Of a stretch of DNA of 62,283 bases, positions 50,425 through 60,977 are shown piece after piece. Within the stretch, counting starts at the first letter, position 1. Every line of letters starts with the position of its first letter. The notes under the pieces were generated by a model. The model saw nothing but the letters and a program-made list of their open reading frames with translations, ran no database searches and was not told the origin of the DNA. The translations under genes and the position numbers were made by a program. This DNA is from a phage. Location of the stretch: sequence record PZ793367.1; one strand, written 5' to 3'.

Positions 50425-50711
50425 GACTTGCTTAACTCCATACCGTCAAGCGCGAAATCCAGGATAGCCGCCGGGTCTTTCTTGCGGATAGTCTCGGCAA
50501 AAATCTTGATGGTCTTCGTGCAATTGTAAGGCGTGACCAGCTTGTCATTATTACGGTCAACCACAATACACGCCGGGATAGTGTCCTTTTCTGTCAGGAT
50601 TGACGTGTTAAAAAAGTCGTAACGGTACGGCAACGGGGTGTTAGCGTGTGCTACGTTCATGCCTACAGCCATTGCCGCGTATGCAGCCACAATCATAATA
50701 ATGTATTTCAT
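50421..50711 (-). CDS. exported periplasmic protein
   Basis: N-terminal signal peptide MKYIIMIVAAYAAMAVGMNVAHA followed by two-Cys mature domain. Confidence 0.5.
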   Translation of the reverse strand: MKYIIMIVAAYAAMAVGMNVAHANTPLPYRYDFFNTSILTEKDTIPACIVVDRNNDKLVTPYNCTKTIKIFAETIRKKDPAAILDFALDGMELSKS

Positions 50712-50974
50712 TTTAAAGTCCTCAGTGATAGGAAAAGTTTTTCGCGGCGCGACTCAAACGCCCGGCGACAGTCGTCGATTGCGGCTTGTGCTGTAAGGTA
50801 CGCATTACTTTCGTACTCACGTTCATCGTTAGCGCGAGCAACGCATACCCATGTACCGTTACGATAACGCTTCAGTAAATGCGAATCGCGTTTGTATTGA
50901 CATGCACCCATATTGTCAAAGCTGATCAGTTCCCAGCCTTCCGGTGCGATACTCAGTGCTTCGTTTACGTTCAC
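50708..50974 (-). CDS. small protein of the xPxGW family
   Basis: SIAPEGWELIS motif; GTG at 50974 with AGAGGG RBS preferred because promoter P2 lies inside the longer ORF. Confidence 0.4.
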   Translation of the reverse strand: MNVNEALSIAPEGWELISFDNMGACQYKRDSHLLKRYRNGTWVCVARANDEREYESNAYLTAQAAIDDCRRAFESRREKLFLSLRTLK

Positions 50975-51005
50975 TCGATTAACCCTCTGTGTTGTTGGTA
51001 AACTA

Positions 51006-51034
51006 AATATAATTGATGGCTTCCATGCCGTCAA
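51006..51034 (-). promoter_or_regulatory. sigma70-like promoter TTGACG-17-TATATT
   Basis: Nearly identical over about 35 nt to the promoter at 61016-61044. Confidence 0.5.
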
Positions 51035-51043
51035 GTAAATCAT

Positions 51044-51256
51044 TTACCAACTAGCAAAACATTTATCAGTCGGTTGGCGGATCATCCATTCACCATAAAT
51101 AAACTTAATCGTTAGAAACGTGTCGTTGCGGTTACCTTTAATCGCCTTAACTTTTAGCGCCCGTCTAAGGTTCCGCCAGCGCGGCTCCCATACCAGATCG
51201 CCAGGGTTAAGTTTGCCGTAGGTAGTCAGGCGGAAGTGTGGTTTATTTGTTGCCAT
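51044..51256 (-). CDS. hypothetical protein
   Basis: Internal ATG at 51256 chosen to limit overlap with upstream gene. Confidence 0.35.
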   Translation of the reverse strand: MATNKPHFRLTTYGKLNPGDLVWEPRWRNLRRALKVKAIKGNRNDTFLTIKFIYGEWMIRQPTDKCFASW

Positions 51257-51896
51257 CGGATGGTACCCCACACAGCGCGTTAAGCGTGGACACATCAAGC
51301 GCAATCTCGGTTGACTGCGGTTTCTCAGCCGCCGGGATTAACTCAGCCGCTTCCGGCCAGGCTTTTAACAGCGCGGCAACATTACGGAACGGCTTAAGCT
51401 GGGCTTTCAGTGTGGCGTGAAGGTTCTCGTAGTCCTTGCGCAGCGCCTTAGCGTCAGCATCGATCGCCATAAGCTCATCGCGTGCGGATTCATACGGGTA
51501 GACCAGACCTTCACCAACAGGCCAGGCGGGTACGATGCAATGCTCGACGTCAGCGCCGCTGTCAGCGAACAATGACCGCGCCTCATCATAACGGTTGCCG
51601 TAGTGCAGACCGTCAATGCGTAAGTTGTGACTGTGACCGCACACGTTGACGTAAAAGTAATCGCTCGTTACCTGAGCGTGAACAGTGCCGAACGCTTTTA
51701 AGTCGTCATTGATATGGTCAGCATCACGCTTGAGCGCCAAGATTTCCTCAATACTCAAGCCGGATTGCTTCAGGAAGTAGTCACGGATACGCACAGCCAC
51801 CGCAGAGCGACGGGCGCAGATGGCCTTGTCGCGTTCGACGATACCGGATTTGTGCTCGGCGTTGCGTAAGATAGCGTCTATAATTGATTGTTTCAT
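51243..51896 (-). CDS. hypothetical protein adjacent to methyltransferase-like gene
   Basis: 217-aa ORF, start overlaps methyltransferase-like stop (TAATG). Confidence 0.5.
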   Translation of the reverse strand: MKQSIIDAILRNAEHKSGIVERDKAICARRSAVAVRIRDYFLKQSGLSIEEILALKRDADHINDDLKAFGTVHAQVTSDYFYVNVCGHSHNLRIDGLHYGNRYDEARSLFADSGADVEHCIVPAWPVGEGLVYPYESARDELMAIDADAKALRKDYENLHATLKAQLKPFRNVAALLKAWPEAAELIPAAEKPQSTEIALDVSTLNALCGVPSDGNK

Positions 51897-52594
51897 TATT
51901 TGTTAGCCTCATATACTGCACGGGCAAAGCCGCGCGGGGTTAATGATCGGATGGTTTTAGTCTTCGCAGACTTGCCGCCTAACTTGTGGTACTGTTTGCT
52001 GTACCCTGGCGGGATGGGTATTGGCAATTTAACAGGATACCGGAAGCCGTTACCCGTCCAAAGGTTTGTAGTCTTCGGATACATGTCGCGCGCTTCGATG
52101 TACTCAGGGAAGAACGGATTAATGTCATCTTCCGGCAGGTACCCGGCAAACTCCCACGGCTGGAAAGTATAATCAGGCTTTTGCCATAGCGTTGATAATA
52201 CTCCGCGCGGGTTCTCCACCATGTACGGAACGTTAAACCAGCACCCTAAACCCTCGGCAATGCGTGCGGTCTTCGTGGCCTCAATCTGAAAATCAGGATT
52301 CTTCTCACGCTTTCGCGGGAAGGCTGGCGCACCGGATACCGCTAAATCCGTGCACGGTGGGAAAGCAAAAATTAAATCCGGTGTTCCCCACTCACCCGCG
52401 ATCGCCTTCAGAGTCCACAGGCTATCAATCCAGGCGTTTACGTAGTGAATGTTTGGATGCTCCACTCGGCACCCGAATTTAGTGTAAGGCCCGTGGTCGC
52501 CCTCGTCCGCGTTGAAGCAGTAGACGGTATGACCCGCCTCCGCCCACGGCTGACCCATCAGGCCGGACCCGTCGAACAGGGACCAGATGATCAT
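51896..52594 (-). CDS. truncated DNA (cytosine-5)-methyltransferase-like protein
   Basis: SLFDGSGL (motif I FxGxG), FAFPPCTDLAVSG (motif IV with PCT instead of PCQ), MVENPRGV (motif VI ENV); only 232 aa, no obvious target-recognition domain. Confidence 0.55.
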   Translation of the reverse strand: MIIWSLFDGSGLMGQPWAEAGHTVYCFNADEGDHGPYTKFGCRVEHPNIHYVNAWIDSLWTLKAIAGEWGTPDLIFAFPPCTDLAVSGAPAFPRKREKNPDFQIEATKTARIAEGLGCWFNVPYMVENPRGVLSTLWQKPDYTFQPWEFAGYLPEDDINPFFPEYIEARDMYPKTTNLWTGNGFRYPVKLPIPIPPGYSKQYHKLGGKSAKTKTIRSLTPRGFARAVYEANK

Positions 52595-52827
52595 TGCATT
52601 TTCTCCAGACCTTTACGCGCACAGTCAACCATGCGTTCGATCACATCTTCCGGCACCATTGCCTGAGTGAGCATCACCTTGCTAACAACGCGCGATATAC
52701 CCACCTGCGCCCCGGATACATGGTCGTAACCACGCCAGACAAATTTAATACAGTGTGCATCAGTTGAGATTTCACAGCGAAAACCGTCGATGTGCACCAG
52801 TTCCAGCAGCTTCATAAAGTCAATCAT
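52591..52827 (-). CDS. hypothetical protein
   Basis: 78-aa ORF. Confidence 0.4.
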   Translation of the reverse strand: MIDFMKLLELVHIDGFRCEISTDAHCIKFVWRGYDHVSGAQVGISRVVSKVMLTQAMVPEDVIERMVDCARKGLEKMQ

Positions 52828-53003
52828 CGTGTTTTCTCCAGCCGCTCCAGTCGGTCAAATAGCGCGTCTATAGCATCATTGCGTACCAGCGGATCGACTT
52901 CTTGTTTGCGTCCGCACGTCAGGCAATAGACCTCATCTTTCAGAACCTGGCGTGCTGTAGGTTGCTCCACTGCCGCGCCGCACTTGCAATAAGCCCATGC
53001 CAT
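52824..53003 (-). CDS. small zinc-ribbon protein
   Basis: CKCGAAVEQ...CLTCGRKQ; internal ATG at 53003. Confidence 0.4.
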   Translation of the reverse strand: MAWAYCKCGAAVEQPTARQVLKDEVYCLTCGRKQEVDPLVRNDAIDALFDRLERLEKTR

Positions 53004-53004
53004 A

Positions 53005-53232
53005 TTATTTACCCCACCATTTCTTTTTCTTTTCCAGCCAGGCGCAAGCCTCGTTGATAGTGTTGTAATTCTGCGACATCTCGCCGTTGTAGCGTGCGAA
53101 ATATCCCTCATAAAATTTAACAATTTCGTTCCCGTTGCGATCCGCCCACACCGCCGAGTCGTTGCGACTGTCAAAGCTGGTCAGCTTAAAGCCGCCAGGT
53201 GTTAACGCTAAAGCCTGCTCGATGGTCATCAT
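53005..53232 (-). CDS. small protein of the xPxGW family
   Basis: ALTPGGFKL ... NEACAWLEKK pattern shared with family members. Confidence 0.45.
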   Translation of the reverse strand: MMTIEQALALTPGGFKLTSFDSRNDSAVWADRNGNEIVKFYEGYFARYNGEMSQNYNTINEACAWLEKKKKWWGK

Positions 53233-53423
53233 GATATTAATTCCCCTACCGTTACATTGAGCGCCGCAGCTAACTCGGTTAGCGTTTTCAGGCGCGGATT
53301 GTTCGCTTTAAGTACCATGAACAGAGCGCCACGTTTCCAGCCTGCGCGCCGTTCCACCTCACTAAGACTTATGGCCTCCCGCTCGGCCAGGTATTGCACA
53401 CGGGCTTTTAAATTAATCGCCAT
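53229..53423 (-). CDS. Cro/C1-type (XRE-family) helix-turn-helix regulator
   Basis: LSEVERRAGWKRGALFMV...LTELAAALNVTVGELI; ATG at 53423 sits 4 nt after a UUCG hairpin. Confidence 0.6.
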   Translation of the reverse strand: MAINLKARVQYLAEREAISLSEVERRAGWKRGALFMVLKANNPRLKTLTELAAALNVTVGELIS

Positions 53424-53429
53424 AGTTTG

Positions 53430-53443
53430 GGGGCCGAAGCCCC
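53430..53443 (-). other. GGGGC-UUCG-GCCCC hairpin in 5' leader of HTH regulator gene
   Basis: Identical core to hairpins at 3285 and 10395. Confidence 0.45.
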
Positions 53444-53451
53444 ACCCTTTA

Positions 53452-53637
53452 TTACTTTTCACCACCCTTAGCCACAGCATCACGCGACGTCTGCGCGTTC
53501 TCGGCGCGTTGCTGCGCGTTAGGTGAATCGGACTCAGCGCGCCCGGTTTGACCGGATACGTTTGGATTGTACCCGACGTTAGCAGAGCAACCAGCCAGCA
53601 GAGTAGCCAGGATGATAGCGATGATAGATTTAGACAT
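53452..53637 (-). CDS. small lipoprotein
   Basis: MSKSIIAIILATLLAGCS lipobox; AGGAG RBS at ATG 53637. Confidence 0.5.
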   Translation of the reverse strand: MSKSIIAIILATLLAGCSANVGYNPNVSGQTGRAESDSPNAQQRAENAQTSRDAVAKGGEK

Positions 53638-53699
53638 GTTTGAAGCTCCTATTGTTTGTGATGGAAAGGAGGCCGCCACCACGTCGACCATAAAATTTG

Positions 53700-53816
53700 T
53701 TAACGCCAGAGTTCTACCGGAAGACCGAACACGAACCGGAGAACCGCCCACACTGCAACCATTGACATCACCCACAATGCCAGGGAAAAGGCAAGACCTG
53801 TGATTATGCTTTGCAT
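53700..53816 (-). CDS. tiny transmembrane peptide (38 aa), unlisted in ORF track
   Basis: MQSIITGLAFSLALWVMSMVAVWAVLRFVFGLPVELWR; AAGG RBS; TAATG overlap with upstream peptide. Confidence 0.4.
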   Translation of the reverse strand: MQSIITGLAFSLALWVMSMVAVWAVLRFVFGLPVELWR

Positions 53817-53950
53817 TACAACCGCCTTAATTGTGTGATAATGTCGTTAAAGGTGGCGTAGTCGCACGTCATAACCCACAGCGCTGACAGTATGAAAATG
53901 GCGATTGACAGTTTAAGTGCCGCGCTTGCGAATACATTAAAACCAGCCAT
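53816..53950 (-). CDS. tiny transmembrane peptide (44 aa), unlisted in ORF track
   Basis: MAGFNVFASAALKLSIAIFILSALWVMTCDYATFNDIITQLRRL; shares ALWVM core with the downstream peptide. Confidence 0.4.
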   Translation of the reverse strand: MAGFNVFASAALKLSIAIFILSALWVMTCDYATFNDIITQLRRL

Positions 53951-54296
53951 AGATCCCCCCGCAGTGTTTCATTGCGTCGTACAGGTTAGAAAATGCCATA
54001 CCTTGTGTAAGGCCGTTCATGGTGTACCATTTACCGTTACGCTCGTCCAGCTTGATAGCCCGGTTTAACGCATTGTGATAAAGGGCGTTCCCACCGTACA
54101 CGCGGACCATGTAAACTTCCCCGTTGCGTGCGGTCACTGACACGGTGATCAGATGACCTTCCTCGGTACCCACCAGGGTAGCACCGTCACAAAAGTAAAT
54201 GTTATCGCCCTGGTGCTCGCTGCGCTCCAGCGGAAAGTCTGTAATATGCGCGACGGCAGCAATGATTCTCGGTAAGTTACTCACAGGAACCCCCAC
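53937..54296 (-). CDS. hypothetical protein (GTG start, uncertain)
   Basis: 119-aa ORF beginning at GTG without clear RBS. Confidence 0.35.
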   Translation of the reverse strand: MGVPVSNLPRIIAAVAHITDFPLERSEHQGDNIYFCDGATLVGTEEGHLITVSVTARNGEVYMVRVYGGNALYHNALNRAIKLDERNGKWYTMNGLTQGMAFSNLYDAMKHCGGIYGWF

Positions 54297-54446
54297 ATTT
54301 CACAAATATATTTCACGGTTGCCGATATTGCGATCAGCGTCATGCAAGCACTTAACACAGCTACTAAATGATCTTTCACAGGAAACCCCACAACGTTAAC
54401 GAAAGATAGCCCAGCGTTACATAGAAACCGATTGTTAATGTAGTGC

Positions 54447-54725
54447 TCACTGGCTGGCCTCCTTCACCATCCGGGCAGCTTCGCGCATTATCTTAGCGCG
54501 GTTGGCTACCGTGGACTTGATACCGTGCTGAGCTAACAGGCGGCGCGTCGTGGTAAACTGGTGCGGCGGGAAGATAGCCGCAAAAAAGTTGTCGTCGTAA
54601 CGCTCCAGTCGGTCGAGGTCCACCAGGTCAGCTACTGCGTGACGCATAGCCTTTGATACAAAGATTGACCAGTCGGTACCCTCCGGTGCCTTGCGTGCTA
54701 AGGTATTCATGACACCATCTCCCAT
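54447..54725 (-). CDS. hypothetical protein
   Basis: 92-aa ORF. Confidence 0.4.
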   Translation of the reverse strand: MGDGVMNTLARKAPEGTDWSIFVSKAMRHAVADLVDLDRLERYDDNFFAAIFPPHQFTTTRRLLAQHGIKSTVANRAKIMREAARMVKEASQ

Positions 54726-54967
54726 GCGTGATGAACAATCTTACCCATTGCCTCATCAAAGCTATTGCATTGCACACTATCGAGATTGCGGAACCGTACC
54801 AGGTTATCGCGGTAAGCAACAGCCATCAGGTGAGCGCCATAATACAATTCGATCTCAATAGAGTGACCTTTGTTAGCCTTTATCACCCAGCCGAGCGGCA
54901 ACACGTTAGCGCGCCCGGTGTTTTCTGCATAGGCCAGCGCTTCGGCTGGCGTTGGGTATTTGTTCAT
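54707..54967 (-). CDS. small protein of the xPxGW family
   Basis: NVLPLGWVIKANKGHSIEIELYYG ... FDEAMGKI. Confidence 0.5.
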   Translation of the reverse strand: MNKYPTPAEALAYAENTGRANVLPLGWVIKANKGHSIEIELYYGAHLMAVAYRDNLVRFRNLDSVQCNSFDEAMGKIVHHAWEMVS

Positions 54968-54969
54968 GA

Positions 54970-55287
54970 TTAAAATCTCACGTTGGTGATAACGATTACC
55001 GGTTTATGACCCATGTTGTAGGTATCACCGAACAACAGCGGACCCATAGTGAAGTCACCGCGTGAAAGGTTACGTGCTGACACCGTGTATACCAGACCGT
55101 TATGCAGTACGGTATCACCCGGCTTGATTGCGCTAATGTGCTTGCCGACTAACTGCGCGTCTTTGTAAACGCGGATGTTATATTCAGGCGCTACCGTCTT
55201 TTTCAGGGAAGCGATCACCGCCTCGCTATCCAGCATGTTGATATTTTCTGCCGCCATCAGTGCCGCAATATTTTCTAATGCTTGCAT
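54970..55287 (-). CDS. hypothetical protein
   Basis: 105-aa ORF. Confidence 0.5.
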   Translation of the reverse strand: MQALENIAALMAAENINMLDSEAVIASLKKTVAPEYNIRVYKDAQLVGKHISAIKPGDTVLHNGLVYTVSARNLSRGDFTMGPLLFGDTYNMGHKPVIVITNVRF

Positions 55288-55359
55288 TTGCTTATCTCCT
55301 GTTACGGGGTGTTAGTGGTTTTATTGGGGCACCTCGCAAGATGCCCTGTAAATCCGCTA

Positions 55360-55599
55360 TTACTTGATGATGAAGGCGAATCCGGTACCGTCTGGAGTTT
55401 CGCCGCTGGCGATGATGTTCCACTCAATCCCGGTACGCTCTTTCAGGTCAGCAACCAGCGCGTTGGCCGCTTCGGTGTGCGCTTCTTTAATCTCAGCAAC
55501 CGGGTAAGCGATGGTCACTTTACCGTACCAGCATTTGGCAACGATGCGAGCGCCACGGGAGTTAGTAGGAGCCAGGAATTTAGTAATGATAGTTTGCAT
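55360..55599 (-). CDS. hypothetical protein
   Basis: 79-aa ORF. Confidence 0.5.
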   Translation of the reverse strand: MQTIITKFLAPTNSRGARIVAKCWYGKVTIAYPVAEIKEAHTEAANALVADLKERTGIEWNIIASGETPDGTGFAFIIK

Positions 55600-55652
55600 G
55601 ATATTTCTCTCTCTTTTTGAGGTGGGAAGCGGTATTGCCTCCCAGTGATTTA

Positions 55653-55681
55653 AAGATACTACTAACCAGATTTAGCGTCAA
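55653..55681 (-). promoter_or_regulatory. candidate sigma70-like promoter TTGACG-17-TATCTT
   Basis: Extended -35 ACTTGACGC matches the conserved early-promoter family; weaker -10. Confidence 0.35.
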
Positions 55682-56006
55682 GTAAATTTATCATTAATTT
55701 TATCATTTCCTCGTCGGGTCGGTAGGAATTGTCGCGGCACATCTCGTTAATTCGGTCCGAAACACTCCTAAGTTTTTGTTTTAACTCGCAATACTTCAAA
55801 TGCTCGTCATGGTTGCGAGCTATGGGGAAACATGGGTATTCATGCACGCAGCCGTCAGACTTACGCACTCTTACGCTGCGACCTCTTACAAAAACCTCTA
55901 TATATTTCCGACCAATGTTAACAACGTTACCCGGTCCACTGGTTGCAGGTCGATCGGTTTTGATAAATACAACATCACCCTTCTTTAACTCGTTCCACCA
56001 TTTCAT
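55662..56006 (-). CDS. hypothetical protein
   Basis: 114-aa ORF. Confidence 0.5.
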   Translation of the reverse strand: MKWWNELKKGDVVFIKTDRPATSGPGNVVNIGRKYIEVFVRGRSVRVRKSDGCVHEYPCFPIARNHDEHLKYCELKQKLRSVSDRINEMCRDNSYRPDEEMIKLMINLLDAKSG

Positions 56007-56332
56007 AATTGCACCACCAGCTTGATATAGTCGATGGCGTCATCCAGCGTCCTGACGTGTACCGGGGGACGGTCCCGCAGATGCACGACGATGTAATTGG
56101 TGAACTGAACGCAGCGCGCGAACTCGTCGCCGTCCGGGTAACGCACAACCCACACCGCTGATCCTTCTTTCGATACTACATAACCCTCGATGACCGGAAG
56201 GCGCGCAGGGCACTCGACAGGCGGAGCCAAATCTATGATCGCATCCTTAAGCCAGGCGGTGACCTCTGCGGGTGATTTGCCGTTTTCCAGGGCGTGCAGG
56301 GCGTTGATAATATTAGCGCGTGCATTATTCAT
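56003..56332 (-). CDS. hypothetical protein
   Basis: 109-aa ORF. Confidence 0.5.
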   Translation of the reverse strand: MNNARANIINALHALENGKSPAEVTAWLKDAIIDLAPPVECPARLPVIEGYVVSKEGSAVWVVRYPDGDEFARCVQFTNYIVVHLRDRPPVHVRTLDDAIDYIKLVVQL

Positions 56333-56742
56333 TTGTTCAGACCTCCATTAACAATAAAATTAAATGCGTCTTTAAAGTTATTAAAGCGGTGGCGCGGTAC
56401 TGTACCAGCATCGCACACCACATAACGCACACCGACTTTAACAATCTGGCCTACTCGCTTGTCGTCATGTACACGGGCAACGCGCCAGGTATGCACGCCT
56501 ATCTGCTCCGCCTTATAGCGGATTTTGAATTTAAGGTACGCCGCCAGCACCTTGTCGGCCCACTTCTGACGCTCGGATGTCGGCACAAACGACGAGCAGC
56601 GATCCGCCAACTTAAAGGTATTGACGGTTAACCCCCAGTCGTTATGACAAGAAAGGTACACCGAGAAAGGCGTGAATTGCAGGCGCACGTTGCGATACTT
56701 AAAACTCTGTTTTACTGCATGGTTAACGGTTACTTTACGCAT
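56329..56742 (-). CDS. hypothetical protein sharing a motif with the upstream gene
   Basis: NVRLQFTPFSVYL...TFKLADR...QKWADKVL. Confidence 0.5.
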   Translation of the reverse strand: MRKVTVNHAVKQSFKYRNVRLQFTPFSVYLSCHNDWGLTVNTFKLADRCSSFVPTSERQKWADKVLAAYLKFKIRYKAEQIGVHTWRVARVHDDKRVGQIVKVGVRYVVCDAGTVPRHRFNNFKDAFNFIVNGGLNK

Positions 56743-57139
56743 AATTAGTACCTTTGATTGAGCAGGTTAGAAAGAGATCCATAACATCATTCGTCCACTG
56801 TTCCCGGTCGCCTTCCTGATCGGCCAGTTTGAACATCTCCACATTGGGCGCTACCAGGTAGACCCCGGTTGTCGTGAATGACAGGCGCACGCTGGAGTAA
56901 TTGAGGCATTCATTGACAGCGTGACGCGTGTCATCGGTGCACGTTCTCGTACTCCACATAAATTTGAACTTGCTATCAGGACGGTGGACACGCACAGCCA
57001 TCTCACCGTCTGCCGTCTGCACAATACCGTAATGCCTCCCGGTTGACTGGTAGCGCACCCTGGCCGCTTTGATAGCCGCCGGGATAGACGTATATCGCCG
57101 ATAACCCGGCGCGCCTTTAAGCTGGTTGGGATGCGGCAT
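56735..57139 (-). CDS. hypothetical protein sharing a motif with the downstream gene
   Basis: SVRLSFTTTGVYL...MFKLADQ...EQWTNDVM. Confidence 0.5.
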   Translation of the reverse strand: MPHPNQLKGAPGYRRYTSIPAAIKAARVRYQSTGRHYGIVQTADGEMAVRVHRPDSKFKFMWSTRTCTDDTRHAVNECLNYSSVRLSFTTTGVYLVAPNVEMFKLADQEGDREQWTNDVMDLFLTCSIKGTNYA

Positions 57140-57452
57140 CGGCTGAACCCCAGGCGCGATCTATCAGTCCTTGCAGCGCTCCCAGTTGTGTAGCGTGGTA
57201 CCCGGCATCGCCCGGATCGCGGTCAACGTAGGCCCAGGCGTGGCCCTCAGTAGTCCGGCGCACCTTGCCGAACGCTACGTTGTTGGCGTCAACGAGGGTA
57301 TAGGTTATGGTGTGTTTACCCTCGCGCACCATGCGCCAGCCTTTAGGAATGCGTAACTGTTGCCCGTAATACTCAAAGATTGAATAGTTGACGTCGTCAA
57401 TCTGTGCTATCAGGTCTACCAGGGCGGCGCGGATCTCTGCAATAGTTTTCAT
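57117..57452 (-). CDS. small protein of the xPxGW family
   Basis: LRIPKGWRMVREGKHTITYTLVD ... ALQGLIDRAW. Confidence 0.5.
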   Translation of the reverse strand: MKTIAEIRAALVDLIAQIDDVNYSIFEYYGQQLRIPKGWRMVREGKHTITYTLVDANNVAFGKVRRTTEGHAWAYVDRDPGDAGYHATQLGALQGLIDRAWGSADAASQPA

Positions 57453-58069
57453 AATTCATTGGCCTTATTGTTGAGCCACTTGATGGCGTCTTGTTGAGTT
57501 TTAAAAGTGGTTTTGTATTTGCAATCCCACCAGATTGCATGGTCACCGTTTAACTTCCGGTATGCTGATCCACGTCTGAAGCCGCGCTGGTCGCTCAGGG
57601 TGATGGTGTCGCTTTCATGGTTGATGGCTATAACCCAGCCTTTAGGCAGATTTACCGGTACGCCCAGGAAATGCGGCTGATTCTCGGCTGGCACGTTGAC
57701 GGAGGCATTACTCAGGCAGCATAACGCGCCCGGTAAATGACTGAAGTCGCCAATAGTCACACCGTCAAAGCTGACGACATAACGGTTGGTTGTTTTTGTC
57801 TTGCATACGTGACCACGTTGACGCGTCCGGTCATGCAGGGTAAACACTACACAGCCTTGAGTGTGCTGTACCAGATCCCAATACTCAGGGAATGCGATAG
57901 ACACGCCGCAGACATCAATGATTCGCGTATTTGGTGCAGCGTCAACATGCGGCGTTAAGTGCGCGATGATTGCGTCAAGCGCCTCGATTAACTCATAAGC
58001 CGGGGCCGTCTTCGGGATAATGCAGGCATAATCATCCCGCAGGTTCTGATAGTAGCTTAAAGTTTTCAT
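57449..58069 (-). CDS. protein with C-terminal xPxGW-family domain
   Basis: VNLPKGWVIAINHESDTITLSD ... QQDAIKWLNNK. Confidence 0.5.
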   Translation of the reverse strand: MKTLSYYQNLRDDYACIIPKTAPAYELIEALDAIIAHLTPHVDAAPNTRIIDVCGVSIAFPEYWDLVQHTQGCVVFTLHDRTRQRGHVCKTKTTNRYVVSFDGVTIGDFSHLPGALCCLSNASVNVPAENQPHFLGVPVNLPKGWVIAINHESDTITLSDQRGFRRGSAYRKLNGDHAIWWDCKYKTTFKTQQDAIKWLNNKANEL

Positions 58070-58320: not shown

Positions 58321-58493
58321 TTAAATTTACCCTCCAGTATTTTAGCGATGACCGCATCAATCCACATATCACGCTGCGACGGCTCATAGGTGTGGCTGAG
58401 CACCTGGCCGATAGTAGCACCTGGGGCAAACGTGGTAATCAATATCACTGTATGCCCGATAAACTTTAATTTAATGTTACTGATTGTTTGCAT
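58317..58493 (-). CDS. small ORF (58 aa) flanking the paralogue array, unlisted in ORF track
   Basis: ATG overlaps the end of the upstream paralogue, ATGA overlap with downstream gene; weakly similar to the 56-aa ORF at 59318-59488. Confidence 0.35.
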   Translation of the reverse strand: MQTISNIKLKFIGHTVILITTFAPGATIGQVLSHTYEPSQRDMWIDAVIAKILEGKFK

Positions 58494-58767
58494 GGTCTTT
58501 CACCCACTTGATGCGCTCAGGGTTAAGGTGCATGGTCGCGCCGTCAAACTCTATTTCGAATCGGTATTCACCGCCGAACGGGTAGATCGGATCGAGTCCA
58601 GCCTCTTCCAGTTGCTTCTTAATATGCCAGCGCGGCAGGCAATACGGCGCTTGCGTGACTGACATACATAATCCAACGTGACGATAGAACGGCTGGCCTT
58701 CCGGCGCGCCTTTATCCAGCCAGGCGGCATAGTCGTTATAGAATTGCTGTAATAATTTATTTTGCAT
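58477..58767 (-). CDS. paralogue 3 of tandem YPFGG-motif family
   Basis: MQNKLLQQFYNDYAAWLD...YPFGG...HLNPERIKWVKDHA. Confidence 0.6.
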   Translation of the reverse strand: MQNKLLQQFYNDYAAWLDKGAPEGQPFYRHVGLCMSVTQAPYCLPRWHIKKQLEEAGLDPIYPFGGEYRFEIEFDGATMHLNPERIKWVKDHANNQ

Positions 58768-59044
58768 GGTCTTTCACCCATTGAACGCGTAAAGGGTTGA
58801 GGTGCATAGCCCGATTCTCTAAATCTATATCGAACTGAGGCACGCCGCCGAACGGGTATAATGAATCGAGTCCGGCCTCCGCAAACTGTTTTTTAATTTC
58901 GTTAAGAGGTACGCGGTACGGTCGTTTCATTGCTTGCGAGCATAAACCCTCGCCGCGCGTAAATTGCTTATCGTCTTCCGGCGCGCCAGCGTCAAGCCAG
59001 GCCGCGTAGTCGTTATAGAATTGCTGTAAGTTTTTATTGTGCAT
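58757..59044 (-). CDS. paralogue 2 of tandem YPFGG-motif family
   Basis: MHNKNLQQFYNDYAAWLD...YPFGG...HLNPLRVQWVKDHA. Confidence 0.6.
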   Translation of the reverse strand: MHNKNLQQFYNDYAAWLDAGAPEDDKQFTRGEGLCSQAMKRPYRVPLNEIKKQFAEAGLDSLYPFGGVPQFDIDLENRAMHLNPLRVQWVKDHAK

Positions 59045-59321
59045 GGTCTTTTACCCACTTGATGCGTAAAGGGTTGATGTGATGGTCGCTATTGAATGAC
59101 TTAGTAAGATAATCCGCCTCACCGTCATTGAAAGGATACTGAAAATCAAGACCAGCCGCCTCGAACTGGCGACCCATCTCGATATAAGCGTCACGGTCGC
59201 CGCCGAACTTCCCCAGGTTATGACATAACCCAGCGTCTCGATAAAACGGTTGTTTGTGTGGCGCGCCAGCGTCAAGCCACGCGGCGTATGCGTTATAGAA
59301 TGCCTGTAATAATTTATTCAT
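59034..59321 (-). CDS. paralogue 1 of tandem YPFGG-motif family
   Basis: MNKLLQAFYNAYAAWLD...YPFNDG...HINPLRIKWVKDHA. Confidence 0.6.
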   Translation of the reverse strand: MNKLLQAFYNAYAAWLDAGAPHKQPFYRDAGLCHNLGKFGGDRDAYIEMGRQFEAAGLDFQYPFNDGEADYLTKSFNSDHHINPLRIKWVKDHAQ

Positions 59322-59800: not shown

Positions 59801-60745
59801 TTATAAGCCGTTAATGCGGTTGGCGTAGCTCACAGCGTTGTATTCGTCGTCGAACTCGTACAGGTGCTTACCGTCGAGCATTACGAAGTGACGACCTTTG
59901 TCAGTGCTGTACACGGCGCGCCCGTTGGTGATAGTGGTGTAAGCGTTGATGTCTGCCTCTGTTACCTCCAGCGCGCCCATGTTGATGAGGTTGCGGATAC
60001 CGATCTGAATGTCGACCCACTCGCGCGACTCGTTAACCCAGCGATAAACGAAACCTGACTTGCTCACCTTGTATACGGAGTCAGCCACGAAGTAACGCGG
60101 GGTTTCTTTATTGATGAAGTCGGTCAGTTGCTGTTGCTTACGCTCGAACTCTTTGCGGTTAAACTCGACCGTCAGATCCAGGTCTTCACCAGCATATAAA
60201 TGTTGCGGCGCTTTCGCCAGGTCACACAGGTCATTGTGATTGGTGATGCGTGCGTCGTGACCGTCTACGATACGCTGCGCCATACCTGCCAGCAGGTTAG
60301 CGGTGCGCTCGCGGTCCATTTTAAACGCTTCATCATGAGCGGCGGCAATGGAGTTACCGGAAAACTCGCGGTTGTCCTTGCCGTCCCAGCCCATACGGGA
60401 ATCACGGGAGTTAAGCTCAATGATGGCCGCCTCCAGGCGCTCAATCAGCTTAGCGCGACGGGTAGGAGTGGAGAAAGACAACCCGGTGTTAGCTTCGAAG
60501 TTAATGCGGTTCCACTCGGCACAAATAGCGCCAATAGCAGTTGTGTTGTCGCGAATCATACGTTCAGCAGTCTGGATCAGGAAAGTGATATTTACAACAA
60601 CAACTGAGGCCTTACCGTAATTAACGCGAACCATCATATCTTCCAGGGTAGACATGCAAGCCTCGCCGCTTTCATAGGTGCCGTGGTCGTTGCTGGTGAA
60701 AGTGATGGTTGATTTACCGTCTTTGATGATTACTGGAAATTTCAT
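59801..60745 (-). CDS. hypothetical protein (314 aa)
   Basis: ATG at 60745 (MKFPVIIKDG) preferred; upstream extension overlaps intergenic hairpin. Confidence 0.5.
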   Translation of the reverse strand: MKFPVIIKDGKSTITFTSNDHGTYESGEACMSTLEDMMVRVNYGKASVVVVNITFLIQTAERMIRDNTTAIGAICAEWNRINFEANTGLSFSTPTRRAKLIERLEAAIIELNSRDSRMGWDGKDNREFSGNSIAAAHDEAFKMDRERTANLLAGMAQRIVDGHDARITNHNDLCDLAKAPQHLYAGEDLDLTVEFNRKEFERKQQQLTDFINKETPRYFVADSVYKVSKSGFVYRWVNESREWVDIQIGIRNLINMGALEVTEADINAYTTITNGRAVYSTDKGRHFVMLDGKHLYEFDDEYNAVSYANRINGL

Positions 60746-60794
60746 TTTGTTTCTCGCTCTTATTGAGGGTGGGGCCGATGGCCCCGTCAAGTTA

Positions 60795-60977
60795 TTAATA
60801 GAAAGATACGTAAGTCGCAATGCCTTTGGCGTCATCGTTAGGCAGCGCCTTGATTGCCAGGTCGTAACCTGCATCGACTTTGGCCTTTGCGCTTTCCTCG
60901 CTGTAACCCCACATTGTCAGAATGGTCACTACGTTTTCTTTATTTACTACTTTGAGCGCTTTGGTGATACGTGCCAT
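60795..60977 (-). CDS. hypothetical small protein
   Basis: 60-aa ORF just downstream of promoter P1. Confidence 0.4.
   Translation of the reverse strand: MARITKALKVVNKENVVTILTMWGYSEESAKAKVDAGYDLAIKALPNDDAKGIATYVSFY

What the first reader, a model, noticed from the sequence alone, without database searches (positions are those of the whole stretch)
50708..58069. Dispersed family of small early proteins sharing an xPxGW ... A(I/M)xWL domain
At least five early ORFs carry the same roughly 60-aa pattern: LPKGW (57449-58069, C-terminal), IPKGW (57117-57452), LPLGW (54707-54967), TPGGF (53005-53232) and APEGW (50708-50974). Each has a hydrophobic strand after the motif and a conserved aromatic or Leu near the C-terminal end. 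Five or more copies of one small domain in a 62-kb genome point to a diversified effector family.
Basis: seen in the sequence. Interest (0 to 1): 0.45.

Follow-up and report, generated by a model that had tools for sequence, protein, structure and literature searches.

The report
Expanded small-domain family in phage accessory genes
A rare E. coli phage of the PTXU04 group carries about seven diverged copies of one small, previously undescribed protein domain across its small accessory genes; the family looks real, but its function is unknown and most copies are dispensable in the laboratory.

Summary
The window is a Xuquatrovirus, about 94% identical to E. coli podophage PTXU04. All five ORFs exist on the minus strand and carry the motif as described.

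- **Clear paralogs:** A (57449-58069) and B (57117-57452) are paralogs, and A holds two tandem copies of the domain. D (53005-53232) and E (50708-50974) are also paralogs.
- **Remote links:** Profile-profile comparison links A/B to D/E (probability 77%, z=9 against column shuffles). It links A/B to C (54707-54967) more weakly (z about 6). It also suggests a sixth gene, F (56003-56332).
- **Shared fold:** AlphaFold models of A domain 2 and of D show the same layout: PxGW, five-strand beta-meander, C-terminal helix. Secondary structure agrees at 54 of 62 aligned positions.
- **Evolution:** The family is confined to PTXU04-like phages. It shows purifying selection, copy number from 2 to 7, and domain shuffling.
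- **Published data:** Knock-down of the PTXU04 orthologues scored five Not Fit and one Semi-Fit.

The paralog family is supported. "Effector" and "early" remain inferences. This is a new but unremarkable ORFan domain family.

The parts
57449..58069 (-). Gene A (206 aa): N-terminal helical module followed by two tandem PxGW domains. Orthologue of PTXU04 gp82, which has only one domain.
   Evidence: ORF. The B-family HMM hits it twice, at aa 22-107 and 126-204. PTXU04 gp82 is 119 aa. dN/dS is 0.24 against Pondi.
57938..58069 (-). A, aa 1-44: helical leader module (MKTLSYY...APAYELIEALD). Relatives carry it fused to different domain subtypes.
   Evidence: AF2 helices at aa 4-13 and 24-38. Alignment A3 shows the same leader joined to gp82-type, B-type or P0075-type domains.
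57695..57937 (-). A domain 1 (aa 45-125), motif FPEYW, P0075-type subtype.
   Evidence: An HMM built without any A1-type sequence scores it at E=1.8e-4. AF2 gives the same strand pattern but low confidence, pLDDT about 60, and no C-terminal helix.
57452..57694 (-). A domain 2 (aa 126-206), motif LPKGW, gp82-type subtype.
   Evidence: AF2 pLDDT 87-97. Strands at aa 146-150, 155-159, 165-171, 177-181 and 184-189, then a helix at aa 192-205.
57117..57452 (-). Gene B (111 aa), motif IPKGW, domain at aa 25-101. Orthologue of PTXU04 gp81.
   Evidence: Merges with A in iterative HMM searches. Leave-out tests: B-type HMM to A E=2e-5, gp82-type HMM to B E=0.007. 34 unique B-type domain sequences are known.
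54707..54967 (-). Gene C (86 aa), motif LPLGW. Orthologue of PTXU04 gp75. The weakest of the five members.
   Evidence: Best non-self hit of the A/B HMM among 470 window ORFs, E=0.0064. hhalign P=3.9e-4 to 1.2e-3, z about 6, aligned in register over 64-67 columns. Only 6 database homologues.
53005..53232 (-). Gene D (75 aa), motif TPGGF. The minimal single-domain member and the only one present in every related phage examined. Orthologue of PTXU04 gp69.
   Evidence: AF2 pLDDT 92.6. Helix aa 4-9, strands aa 15-21, 26-31, 36-40 and 43-48, helix aa 59-73. 15 homologues. Present in all nine long loci.
50708..50974 (-). Gene E (88 aa from the internal Val start; the ORF extends to 51043), motif APEGW. 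Paralog of D. Orthologue of PTXU04 gp63.
   Evidence: D-E Smith-Waterman z=7.7. The D and E families merge in HMM iteration. A sigma-70-like site, TTGACG-17-TATATT at 51034-51006, lies just upstream of the short start.
56003..56332 (-). Gene F (109 aa), with 'LPVIEGY' in place of PxGW. Orthologue of PTXU04 gp78.
   Evidence: Merged profile vs F: probability 42%, P=2.7e-4, z=10.2, 63-74 columns in register. It is the only outlier among about 37 other families of the block. A 108-aa PTXU04 protein appears in D's Foldseek list with TM 0.49; that it is gp78 is inferred from its length only.

Best explanation
These genes are one diverged paralog family built on a small alpha+beta domain of about 65-75 aa that has not been described before. 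The layout is an optional N-terminal helix, a Pro-x-Gly-Trp/Phe turn, a five-strand antiparallel beta-meander, and a C-terminal helix starting with (T/S)xx(E/D)A(I/L/M)xx(L/I).

The window holds six or seven copies: two in A, one each in B, C, D and E, and probably one in F. All lie in the minus-strand block of about 45 small accessory genes of a PTXU04-like podophage.

Shown here:
- A/B and D/E are paralog pairs.
- A/B is remotely homologous to D/E.
- A domain 2 and D share a predicted fold.
- The genes are under purifying selection.
- Copy number varies between related phages, and the domain has been shuffled onto different leader modules.

Inferred: the domains act as small stoichiometric protein binders. 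The conserved helix/PxGW/core residues would hold the fold together, and the variable exposed sheet face would recognise different host or phage partners. On this reading the family is a set of condition-specific accessory, host-takeover or anti-defence-type factors.
For: Family.
- Iterative HMMs merge A with B and D with E.
- Leave-out HMMs still connect the subtypes.
- hhalign A/B vs D/E gives probability 77%, P=2e-5, z=9.1, with 57 columns in register.
- D/E and C are the top two non-self hits of the A/B profile among about 40 block families and among 470 ORFs.
- MAFFT aligns all families in register.
- Independently predicted secondary structures of A domain 2 and D agree at 54 of 62 aligned positions, with no strand/helix conflicts.

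Real genes. dN/dS is 0.09-0.43. The genes are annotated in PTXU04.

Accessory and diversifying.
- Copy number runs from 2 to 7 per phage.
- The same leader is fused to different domain subtypes, and a gp83-like leader is fused to the domain in P0106.
- C was created by insertion of a domain cassette into an ancestral 105-aa gene.
- The window's D is only 61% identical to PTXU04's D, in a region that is otherwise about 94% identical.

Dispensability. In the PTXU04 CRISPRi-ART screen in BL21, gp63, gp69, gp75, gp78 and gp82 were Not Fit and gp81 was Semi-Fit (PMC11879866, supplementary file 16).

Binder rather than nucleic-acid protein or enzyme.
- No catalytic family matches.
- pI ranges from 4.3 to 10 within the family.
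Against: - The remote links are statistical, not decisive. HH probabilities are 77% (A/B-D/E), 19-36% (C) and 42% (F). D/E vs C is not significant, and C as query does not rank A/B first.
- Only two structures could be predicted. There are no models for B, C, E or F, and no direct 3D superposition of the A and D models.
- A domain 1 is modelled at low confidence.
- The two Foldseek BFVD searches share almost no hits, and no paralog was retrieved.
- No partner, phenotype or expression timing is known. Non-essentiality in BL21 fits many other roles, or redundancy between paralogs.
Confidence: 0.5

Rival explanations
1. The domains are small nucleic-acid-binding regulators with an AP2- or integrase-arm-like beta-sheet plus helix. 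They would tune host or phage transcription, or bind RNA.
Against: Pfam AP2 and Arm-DNA-bind models do not match. The only trace is F vs Arm-DNA-bind_3 at E 0.29, and P0112 itself is not recognised as AP2. Net charge is near zero, and pI ranges from 4.3 to 10 within the family. No basic patch is conserved across subfamilies.
Confidence: 0.15
2. There is no single family. A/B, D/E and C (and F) are two to four unrelated ORFan families that converged on a simple beta-meander plus helix and happen to share a Pro-x-Gly-aromatic turn.
For: Most cross-family pairwise alignments are no better than shuffles. D/E vs C is not significant, and the C and F queries do not rank A/B first. HH probabilities are below 80%. 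Foldseek did not retrieve paralogs across families.
Against: A/B vs D/E gives z=9.1 and is the reciprocal best match among about 40 families. The cross-family alignments span the full domain and stay in register from the motif to the helix N-cap. The secondary structures coincide. The motif is over-represented in the block. The only outliers in the census of the block are the proposed members plus F.
Confidence: 0.2
3. The domains are adaptors or chaperone-like partners of the phage's own proteins, for example replication or DNA-modification factors encoded nearby, and not modulators of host proteins.
For: The fold resembles type III secretion chaperones and capping or adaptor proteins. The genes are interleaved with Nmad5, a cytosine methyltransferase, a polynucleotide kinase, an exonuclease and PhoH. 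The gp81 knock-down is Semi-Fit even in the defence-poor strain BL21.
Against: Five of six members are Not Fit. Copy number varies between phages that keep the same core genes. No member co-varies obviously with a particular neighbour.
Confidence: 0.15

Closest known systems
Small phage or mobile-element inhibitor and immunity proteins with a two-layer alpha+beta fold (AcrIIA11, PsiB, TriTu immunity protein, type III secretion chaperones)
Multi-copy families of small accessory or early genes in virulent phages (general phenomenon; from my own knowledge, not tested here)
   Same: Several diverged paralogs sit in a block of small non-essential genes. They show mosaic exchange, and copy number differs between related phages.
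   Different: The domain matches no family described in Pfam, PHROGs, NCBIfam or PADLOC. It was found only in PTXU04-like phages.
AP2 / integrase-arm type beta-sheet plus helix DNA-binding domains
   Different: There is no AP2 or Arm-DNA-bind HMM match. The domain has two extra strands, no conserved basic surface, and variable pI.
Tad3 (Pfam PF25185, type I Thoeris inhibitor)
   Same: E gives a weak Pfam hit to the C-terminal part of the Tad3 model: E 0.026, 14.7 bits.
   Different: The score is well below the 27-bit cut-off. Only one of the 47 family members scanned gives the hit. I treat it as noise unless it is confirmed.

Membership tests
PxGW small-domain family (defined here) | Pro-x-Gly-Trp/Phe turn immediately before the first strand | tested here: met
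   Present in A domain 2, B, C, D and E. A domain 1 has PEYW and F has 'IEGY'.
PxGW small-domain family (defined here) | Five-strand beta-meander followed by a C-terminal helix with a (T/S)xx(E/D)A(I/L/M) cap | tested here: met
   Confident AF2 models for A domain 2 and D. Secondary structure agrees at 54 of 62 aligned positions. For B, C, E and F this rests on alignment only.
PxGW small-domain family (defined here) | Profile-level similarity above shuffled and genomic background | tested here: met
   A/B-D/E z=9.1, A/B-C z=5.9, merged profile vs F z=10.2. Background families reach P>=0.012. D/E-C is not significant.
Any curated family in Pfam, PHROGs, NCBIfam or PADLOC | HMM score above the curated or significant threshold | tested here: not met
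   No hit for A-F below E 0.01 in any library. None of the 47 members has a Pfam hit below E 0.01.
AP2 / integrase-arm DNA-binding domain | Match to the AP2 or Arm-DNA-bind profile, and a conserved basic DNA-binding face | tested here: not met
Anti-defence proteins (AcrIIA11, Tad3) | Sequence or confident structural homology to a characterised inhibitor | tested here: inconclusive
Anti-defence proteins (AcrIIA11, Tad3) | Demonstrated inhibition of a defence system | not testable with these tools
   This needs plating on strains that carry defence systems. The only relevant published datum is that the relative Bas95 is very sensitive to restriction-modification systems (PMC11990801).
Early genes | Transcription in the first minutes of infection | not testable with these tools
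   Only indirect evidence is available. The genes lie in a long minus-strand block of small genes running from the right genome end. Sigma-70-like sites sit in intergenic gaps, but the overall count is not above shuffles.

The most novel reading that the evidence does not exclude
The PxGW domain is a diversifiable binding scaffold. A conserved helix/PxGW/core displays a fast-evolving beta-sheet face. The phage lineage duplicates, swaps and fuses copies, including tandem two-domain proteins, to neutralise different host factors or defence systems. On this reading each paralog is a distinct, previously unknown inhibitor.
Probability: 0.2. Interest if true: 0.6.

Novelty: new member of a known kind. 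Interest (0 to 1): 0.3.

Why it matters
The analysis gives a name, a boundary and a predicted fold to six genes, about seven domain copies, that are annotated only as 'hypothetical' in a poorly understood E. coli phage group.

It explains part of the mosaicism of the accessory block as cassette exchange of one domain. It also offers a concrete explanation, possible redundancy between paralogs, for why single-gene knock-downs in PTXU04 mostly gave no phenotype.

If the members prove to be host-factor or defence inhibitors, the family would be a compact source of new inhibitors. As it stands, it is a typical lineage-restricted ORFan domain family.

Tried and rejected
1. Pfam, PHROGs, NCBIfam and PADLOC scans of A-F and of 47 family members gave nothing significant.
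2. PDB sequence and profile searches gave only a hit of the D/E profile to the Lap adhesin 6xi3. It comes from summing 'DRNGN' repeat matches, with individual E-values of 0.8-84, so I rejected it.
3. A full HMMER search of 1.84 billion representatives with the merged profile recovered family members only. The remaining hits were giant repeat proteins (PKD-like, pentapeptide and similar) whose scores come from summed repeats, so I rejected them.
4. Foldseek against BFVD gave no significant hit for A. For D it found only its own PTXU04 orthologue. It could not test cross-family similarity, because even gp82 was not retrieved and is apparently absent from BFVD.
5. The IMG/VR scan with the D profile returned a single 61,600-bp contig, the same length as the PTXU04 genome and probably that phage.
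6. Other candidate members were rejected or left open. The C-terminal half of G (56329-56742) shows no signal. I (53937-54296) is marginal, with P 0.006-0.009 and z 3.7-4.4, and is unresolved. The C-terminus of 59801-60874 is at noise level.
7. I asked whether the invariant N-terminal 17 aa of D reflect a DNA-level constraint. Synonymous changes are present there, so the constraint is on the protein.
8. The Tad3 lead was not supported.
Full report
**Context**

The window matches Escherichia phage PTXU04 (genus Xuquatrovirus). The 50.0-58.5 kb stretch that was searched is 94% identical over 89% of its length. Pondi and Bas95 are more distant relatives. In PTXU04 the structural genes lie on the plus strand. 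A long block of about 48 small genes, gp47-gp95, runs on the minus strand from the right genome end to about 45 kb. Nearly all of them are annotated as hypothetical. All ORFs of the finding lie in this block. I call them A (57449-58069), B (57117-57452), C (54707-54967), D (53005-53232) and E (50708-50974). They are the orthologues of PTXU04 gp82, gp81, gp75, gp69 and gp63.

**Observation check**

P.G[WF] occurs six times in the block proteins against 0.74 expected, and 0 of 1000 residue shuffles reach six. It occurs nowhere else in the proteome.

Pairwise Smith-Waterman scores beat shuffles for some pairs only:
- D-E, z=7.7
- A C-terminal half vs B, z=5.5
- A N-terminal part vs B, z=7.5
- A C-terminal half vs C, z=3.8 (weaker)
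- A C-terminal half vs D, z=3.1 (weaker)

Most other cross pairs are at noise level.

**Building families**

I fetched the homologous regions of nine related phages or contigs. Three database searches gave 15 homologues for D, 62 for A/B and 6 for C. All come from PTXU04-like contigs and none has a Pfam domain.

Iterative HMM searches in the local ORF set merge A with B and D with E. The B profile hits A twice, at aa 22-107 and 126-204. A therefore carries a tandem duplication of the domain. PTXU04 gp82 (119 aa) has one copy and Pondi's orthologue (199 aa) has two.

Leave-out HMMs confirm these links:
- Without any A1-type sequence in the training set, A domain 1 scores E=1.8e-4.
- The B-type HMM finds A at E=2e-5.
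- The gp82-type HMM finds B at E=0.007.

**Remote links**

I compared the enriched profiles with hhalign. The null was the same target alignment with its columns shuffled.

| Comparison | Probability | P | z | Shuffles reaching the score | Columns aligned |
|---|---|---|---|---|---|
| A/B vs D/E | 77% | 2e-5 | 9.1 | 0/120 | 57, from motif to C-terminal helix |
| A/B vs C | 29% | 5.8e-4 | 5.9 | 0/120 | 19 without realignment |
| (A/B+D/E) vs C | 19% | 1.2e-3 | 6.3 | 0/100 | 64-67, in register |

As a genomic control, I compared the A/B profile with profiles of all the other gene families of the block, about 40. The order was D/E (2e-5), C (3.9e-4), F at 56003-56332 (3.2e-3), I at 53937-54296 (9e-3), and then noise at 0.018 or above.

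The plain A/B HMM was also run against all 470 ORFs of the window. It ranks C (E 0.0064) and D (E 0.063) directly after A and B.

The merged profile singles out F (probability 42%, P 2.7e-4, z=10.2). No other family of the block scores below P 0.012.

There are caveats. D/E vs C is not significant. C and F used as queries do not rank A/B first. I rate membership as follows:
- A, B, D and E: well supported.
- C and F: probable.
- I: unresolved.

**Structure**

- **A model** (63-sequence alignment): domain 2 has pLDDT 87-97. After LPKGW come five strands (aa 146-150, 155-159, 165-171, 177-181, 184-189) and a helix (aa 192-205). Domain 1 shows the same strand series at pLDDT of about 60.
- **D model:** pLDDT 92.6. 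It has a helix at aa 4-9, PGGF, strands at aa 15-21, 26-31, 36-40 and 43-48, a short irregular fifth strand, and a helix at aa 59-73.
- **Agreement:** threaded on the sequence alignment, the two independent secondary-structure strings agree at 54 of 62 positions (23 strand-strand, 14 helix-helix) with no strand/helix conflict.

Foldseek against BFVD gave no significant hit for A. For D it found only the PTXU04 orthologue.

**No known family**

Pfam, PHROGs, NCBIfam and PADLOC give nothing for A-F or for 47 family members. PDB sequence searches give only a repeat artefact.

A full HMMER scan of 1.84 billion representatives with the merged profile found more family members:
- P0099, with two tandem B-type domains.
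- P0103.
- P0106, a gp83-like leader fused to the domain.

Everything else in that scan was spurious repeat proteins.

The authors of the PTXU04 CRISPRi-ART study also found nothing for these genes with HHpred.

**Evolution**

- **Selection:** dN/dS is 0.09-0.43 for all members, so they are real genes under purifying selection.
- **Copy number:** it ranges from 2 in Bas95 to 7 in this window and in Pondi. D is the only member present everywhere.
- **Shuffling:** the domain behaves as a cassette. The same N-terminal leader is joined to gp82-type, B-type or P0075-type domains.
- **Origin of C:** in the six relatives aligned (Bas95 and five metagenomic contigs), one 105-115-aa gene occupies this position. 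Here it is split into C (its N-terminus plus a PxGW domain) and the next gene, 54447-54725.
- **Allele replacement:** the E position carries a third subtype in two contigs. The window's D allele is 61% identical to PTXU04's, in a region that is otherwise about 94% identical.
- **Protein-level constraint:** the invariant N-terminal 17 residues of D are conserved at the protein level, since synonymous changes occur within them.

**Function**

Nothing catalytic is detectable. The charge is not consistently basic: pI is 4.3-10 within A/B and net charge is about 0. This argues against a conserved nucleic-acid-binding role.

In the published CRISPRi-ART screen of PTXU04 in E. coli BL21, the orthologues of E, D, C, F and A were Not Fit. 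The B orthologue gp81 was Semi-Fit, at -0.85 (PMC11879866, supplementary file 16). The biology of the group is described as largely enigmatic. The relative Bas95 depends on O-antigen and is very sensitive to restriction-modification systems (PMC11990801).

My best reading is that these are small stoichiometric protein binders with accessory, condition-specific roles. Paralogs may be redundant with one another. The family itself is shown. The binder mechanism is inferred, and I put it at roughly one in three. 'Early' expression is likewise inferred, from gene position and from sigma-70-like sites in intergenic gaps. One such site lies just upstream of E's short start. The overall count of such sites is not above shuffles.

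**Verdict**

The 'effector' reading is plausible but untested. This is a new, lineage-restricted domain family of an ordinary kind, and I score interest at 0.3.

Noticed in passing
56329-56742 (-) and 56735-57139 (-): A second, separate paralog pair. The N-terminal 75 aa of the 137-aa protein match the C-terminal half of the neighbouring 134-aa protein (BLAST E 7.7e-9, Smith-Waterman z=15). In Pondi and several contigs these modules occur as separate ORFs of 66-74 aa. The N-terminal half of the 134-aa protein hits phrog_5407 and was called 'DUF2188-like' by HHpred in PMC11879866.
   Followed up: partly
58477-58767, 58757-59044, 59034-59321 (-): A tandem triplication of a 95-96-aa gene (LQQFYNDYAAWLD.GAPE...). 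The three copies overlap end to end. phmmer collects all three into the same homologue set. There is no Pfam hit.
   Followed up: partly
54447-54967 (-): C and the next gene (PTXU04 gp74 type) correspond to a single 105-115-aa gene in Bas95 and five metagenomic relatives. Here a cassette interrupts the ancestral ORF after 'AYAENTGR'. It encodes the PxGW domain, a stop codon and a new start. P0083 is the unsplit form.
   Followed up: yes
55662-56006 (-): A 114-aa ORF with no homologue in any of the nine related loci. PTXU04 has only a gap of about 106 bp at this position. The ORF matches Pfam Phage_ProQ_C_like (PF24203, E 4.8e-7), so it looks like a window-specific gene insertion encoding a possible RNA-chaperone-like protein.
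   Followed up: partly
53005-53232 (-): The window's D allele is only 61% identical in protein to PTXU04 gp69 but 88% identical to Pondi's copy. The region as a whole is about 94% identical to PTXU04. This points to local allele replacement by recombination.
   Followed up: partly
61044-61016, 51034-51006, 46809-46781, 48484-48456 (-): Near-identical sigma-70-like sites (TTGAC[GA]-17-TATATT/TAAATT) sit in intergenic gaps of the minus-strand block. This fits transcription by host RNA polymerase from several promoters. The overall count of promoter-like sites is not above shuffles (21 against 18.6).
   Followed up: no
51243-52594 (-): An Nmad5 (nucleotide-modification-associated domain 5) protein lies directly downstream of the gene annotated in PTXU04 as a cytosine DNA methyltransferase. 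Together they may form a DNA-modification module inside the accessory block. The relative Bas95 is nevertheless reported as very sensitive to restriction-modification systems.
   Followed up: no
53937-54296 (-): The 119-aa protein I gives marginal similarity to the family (D-I Smith-Waterman z=4.6; hhalign P 0.006-0.009, z 3.7-4.4). It may be a very distant member or noise, and this is unresolved.
   Followed up: partly
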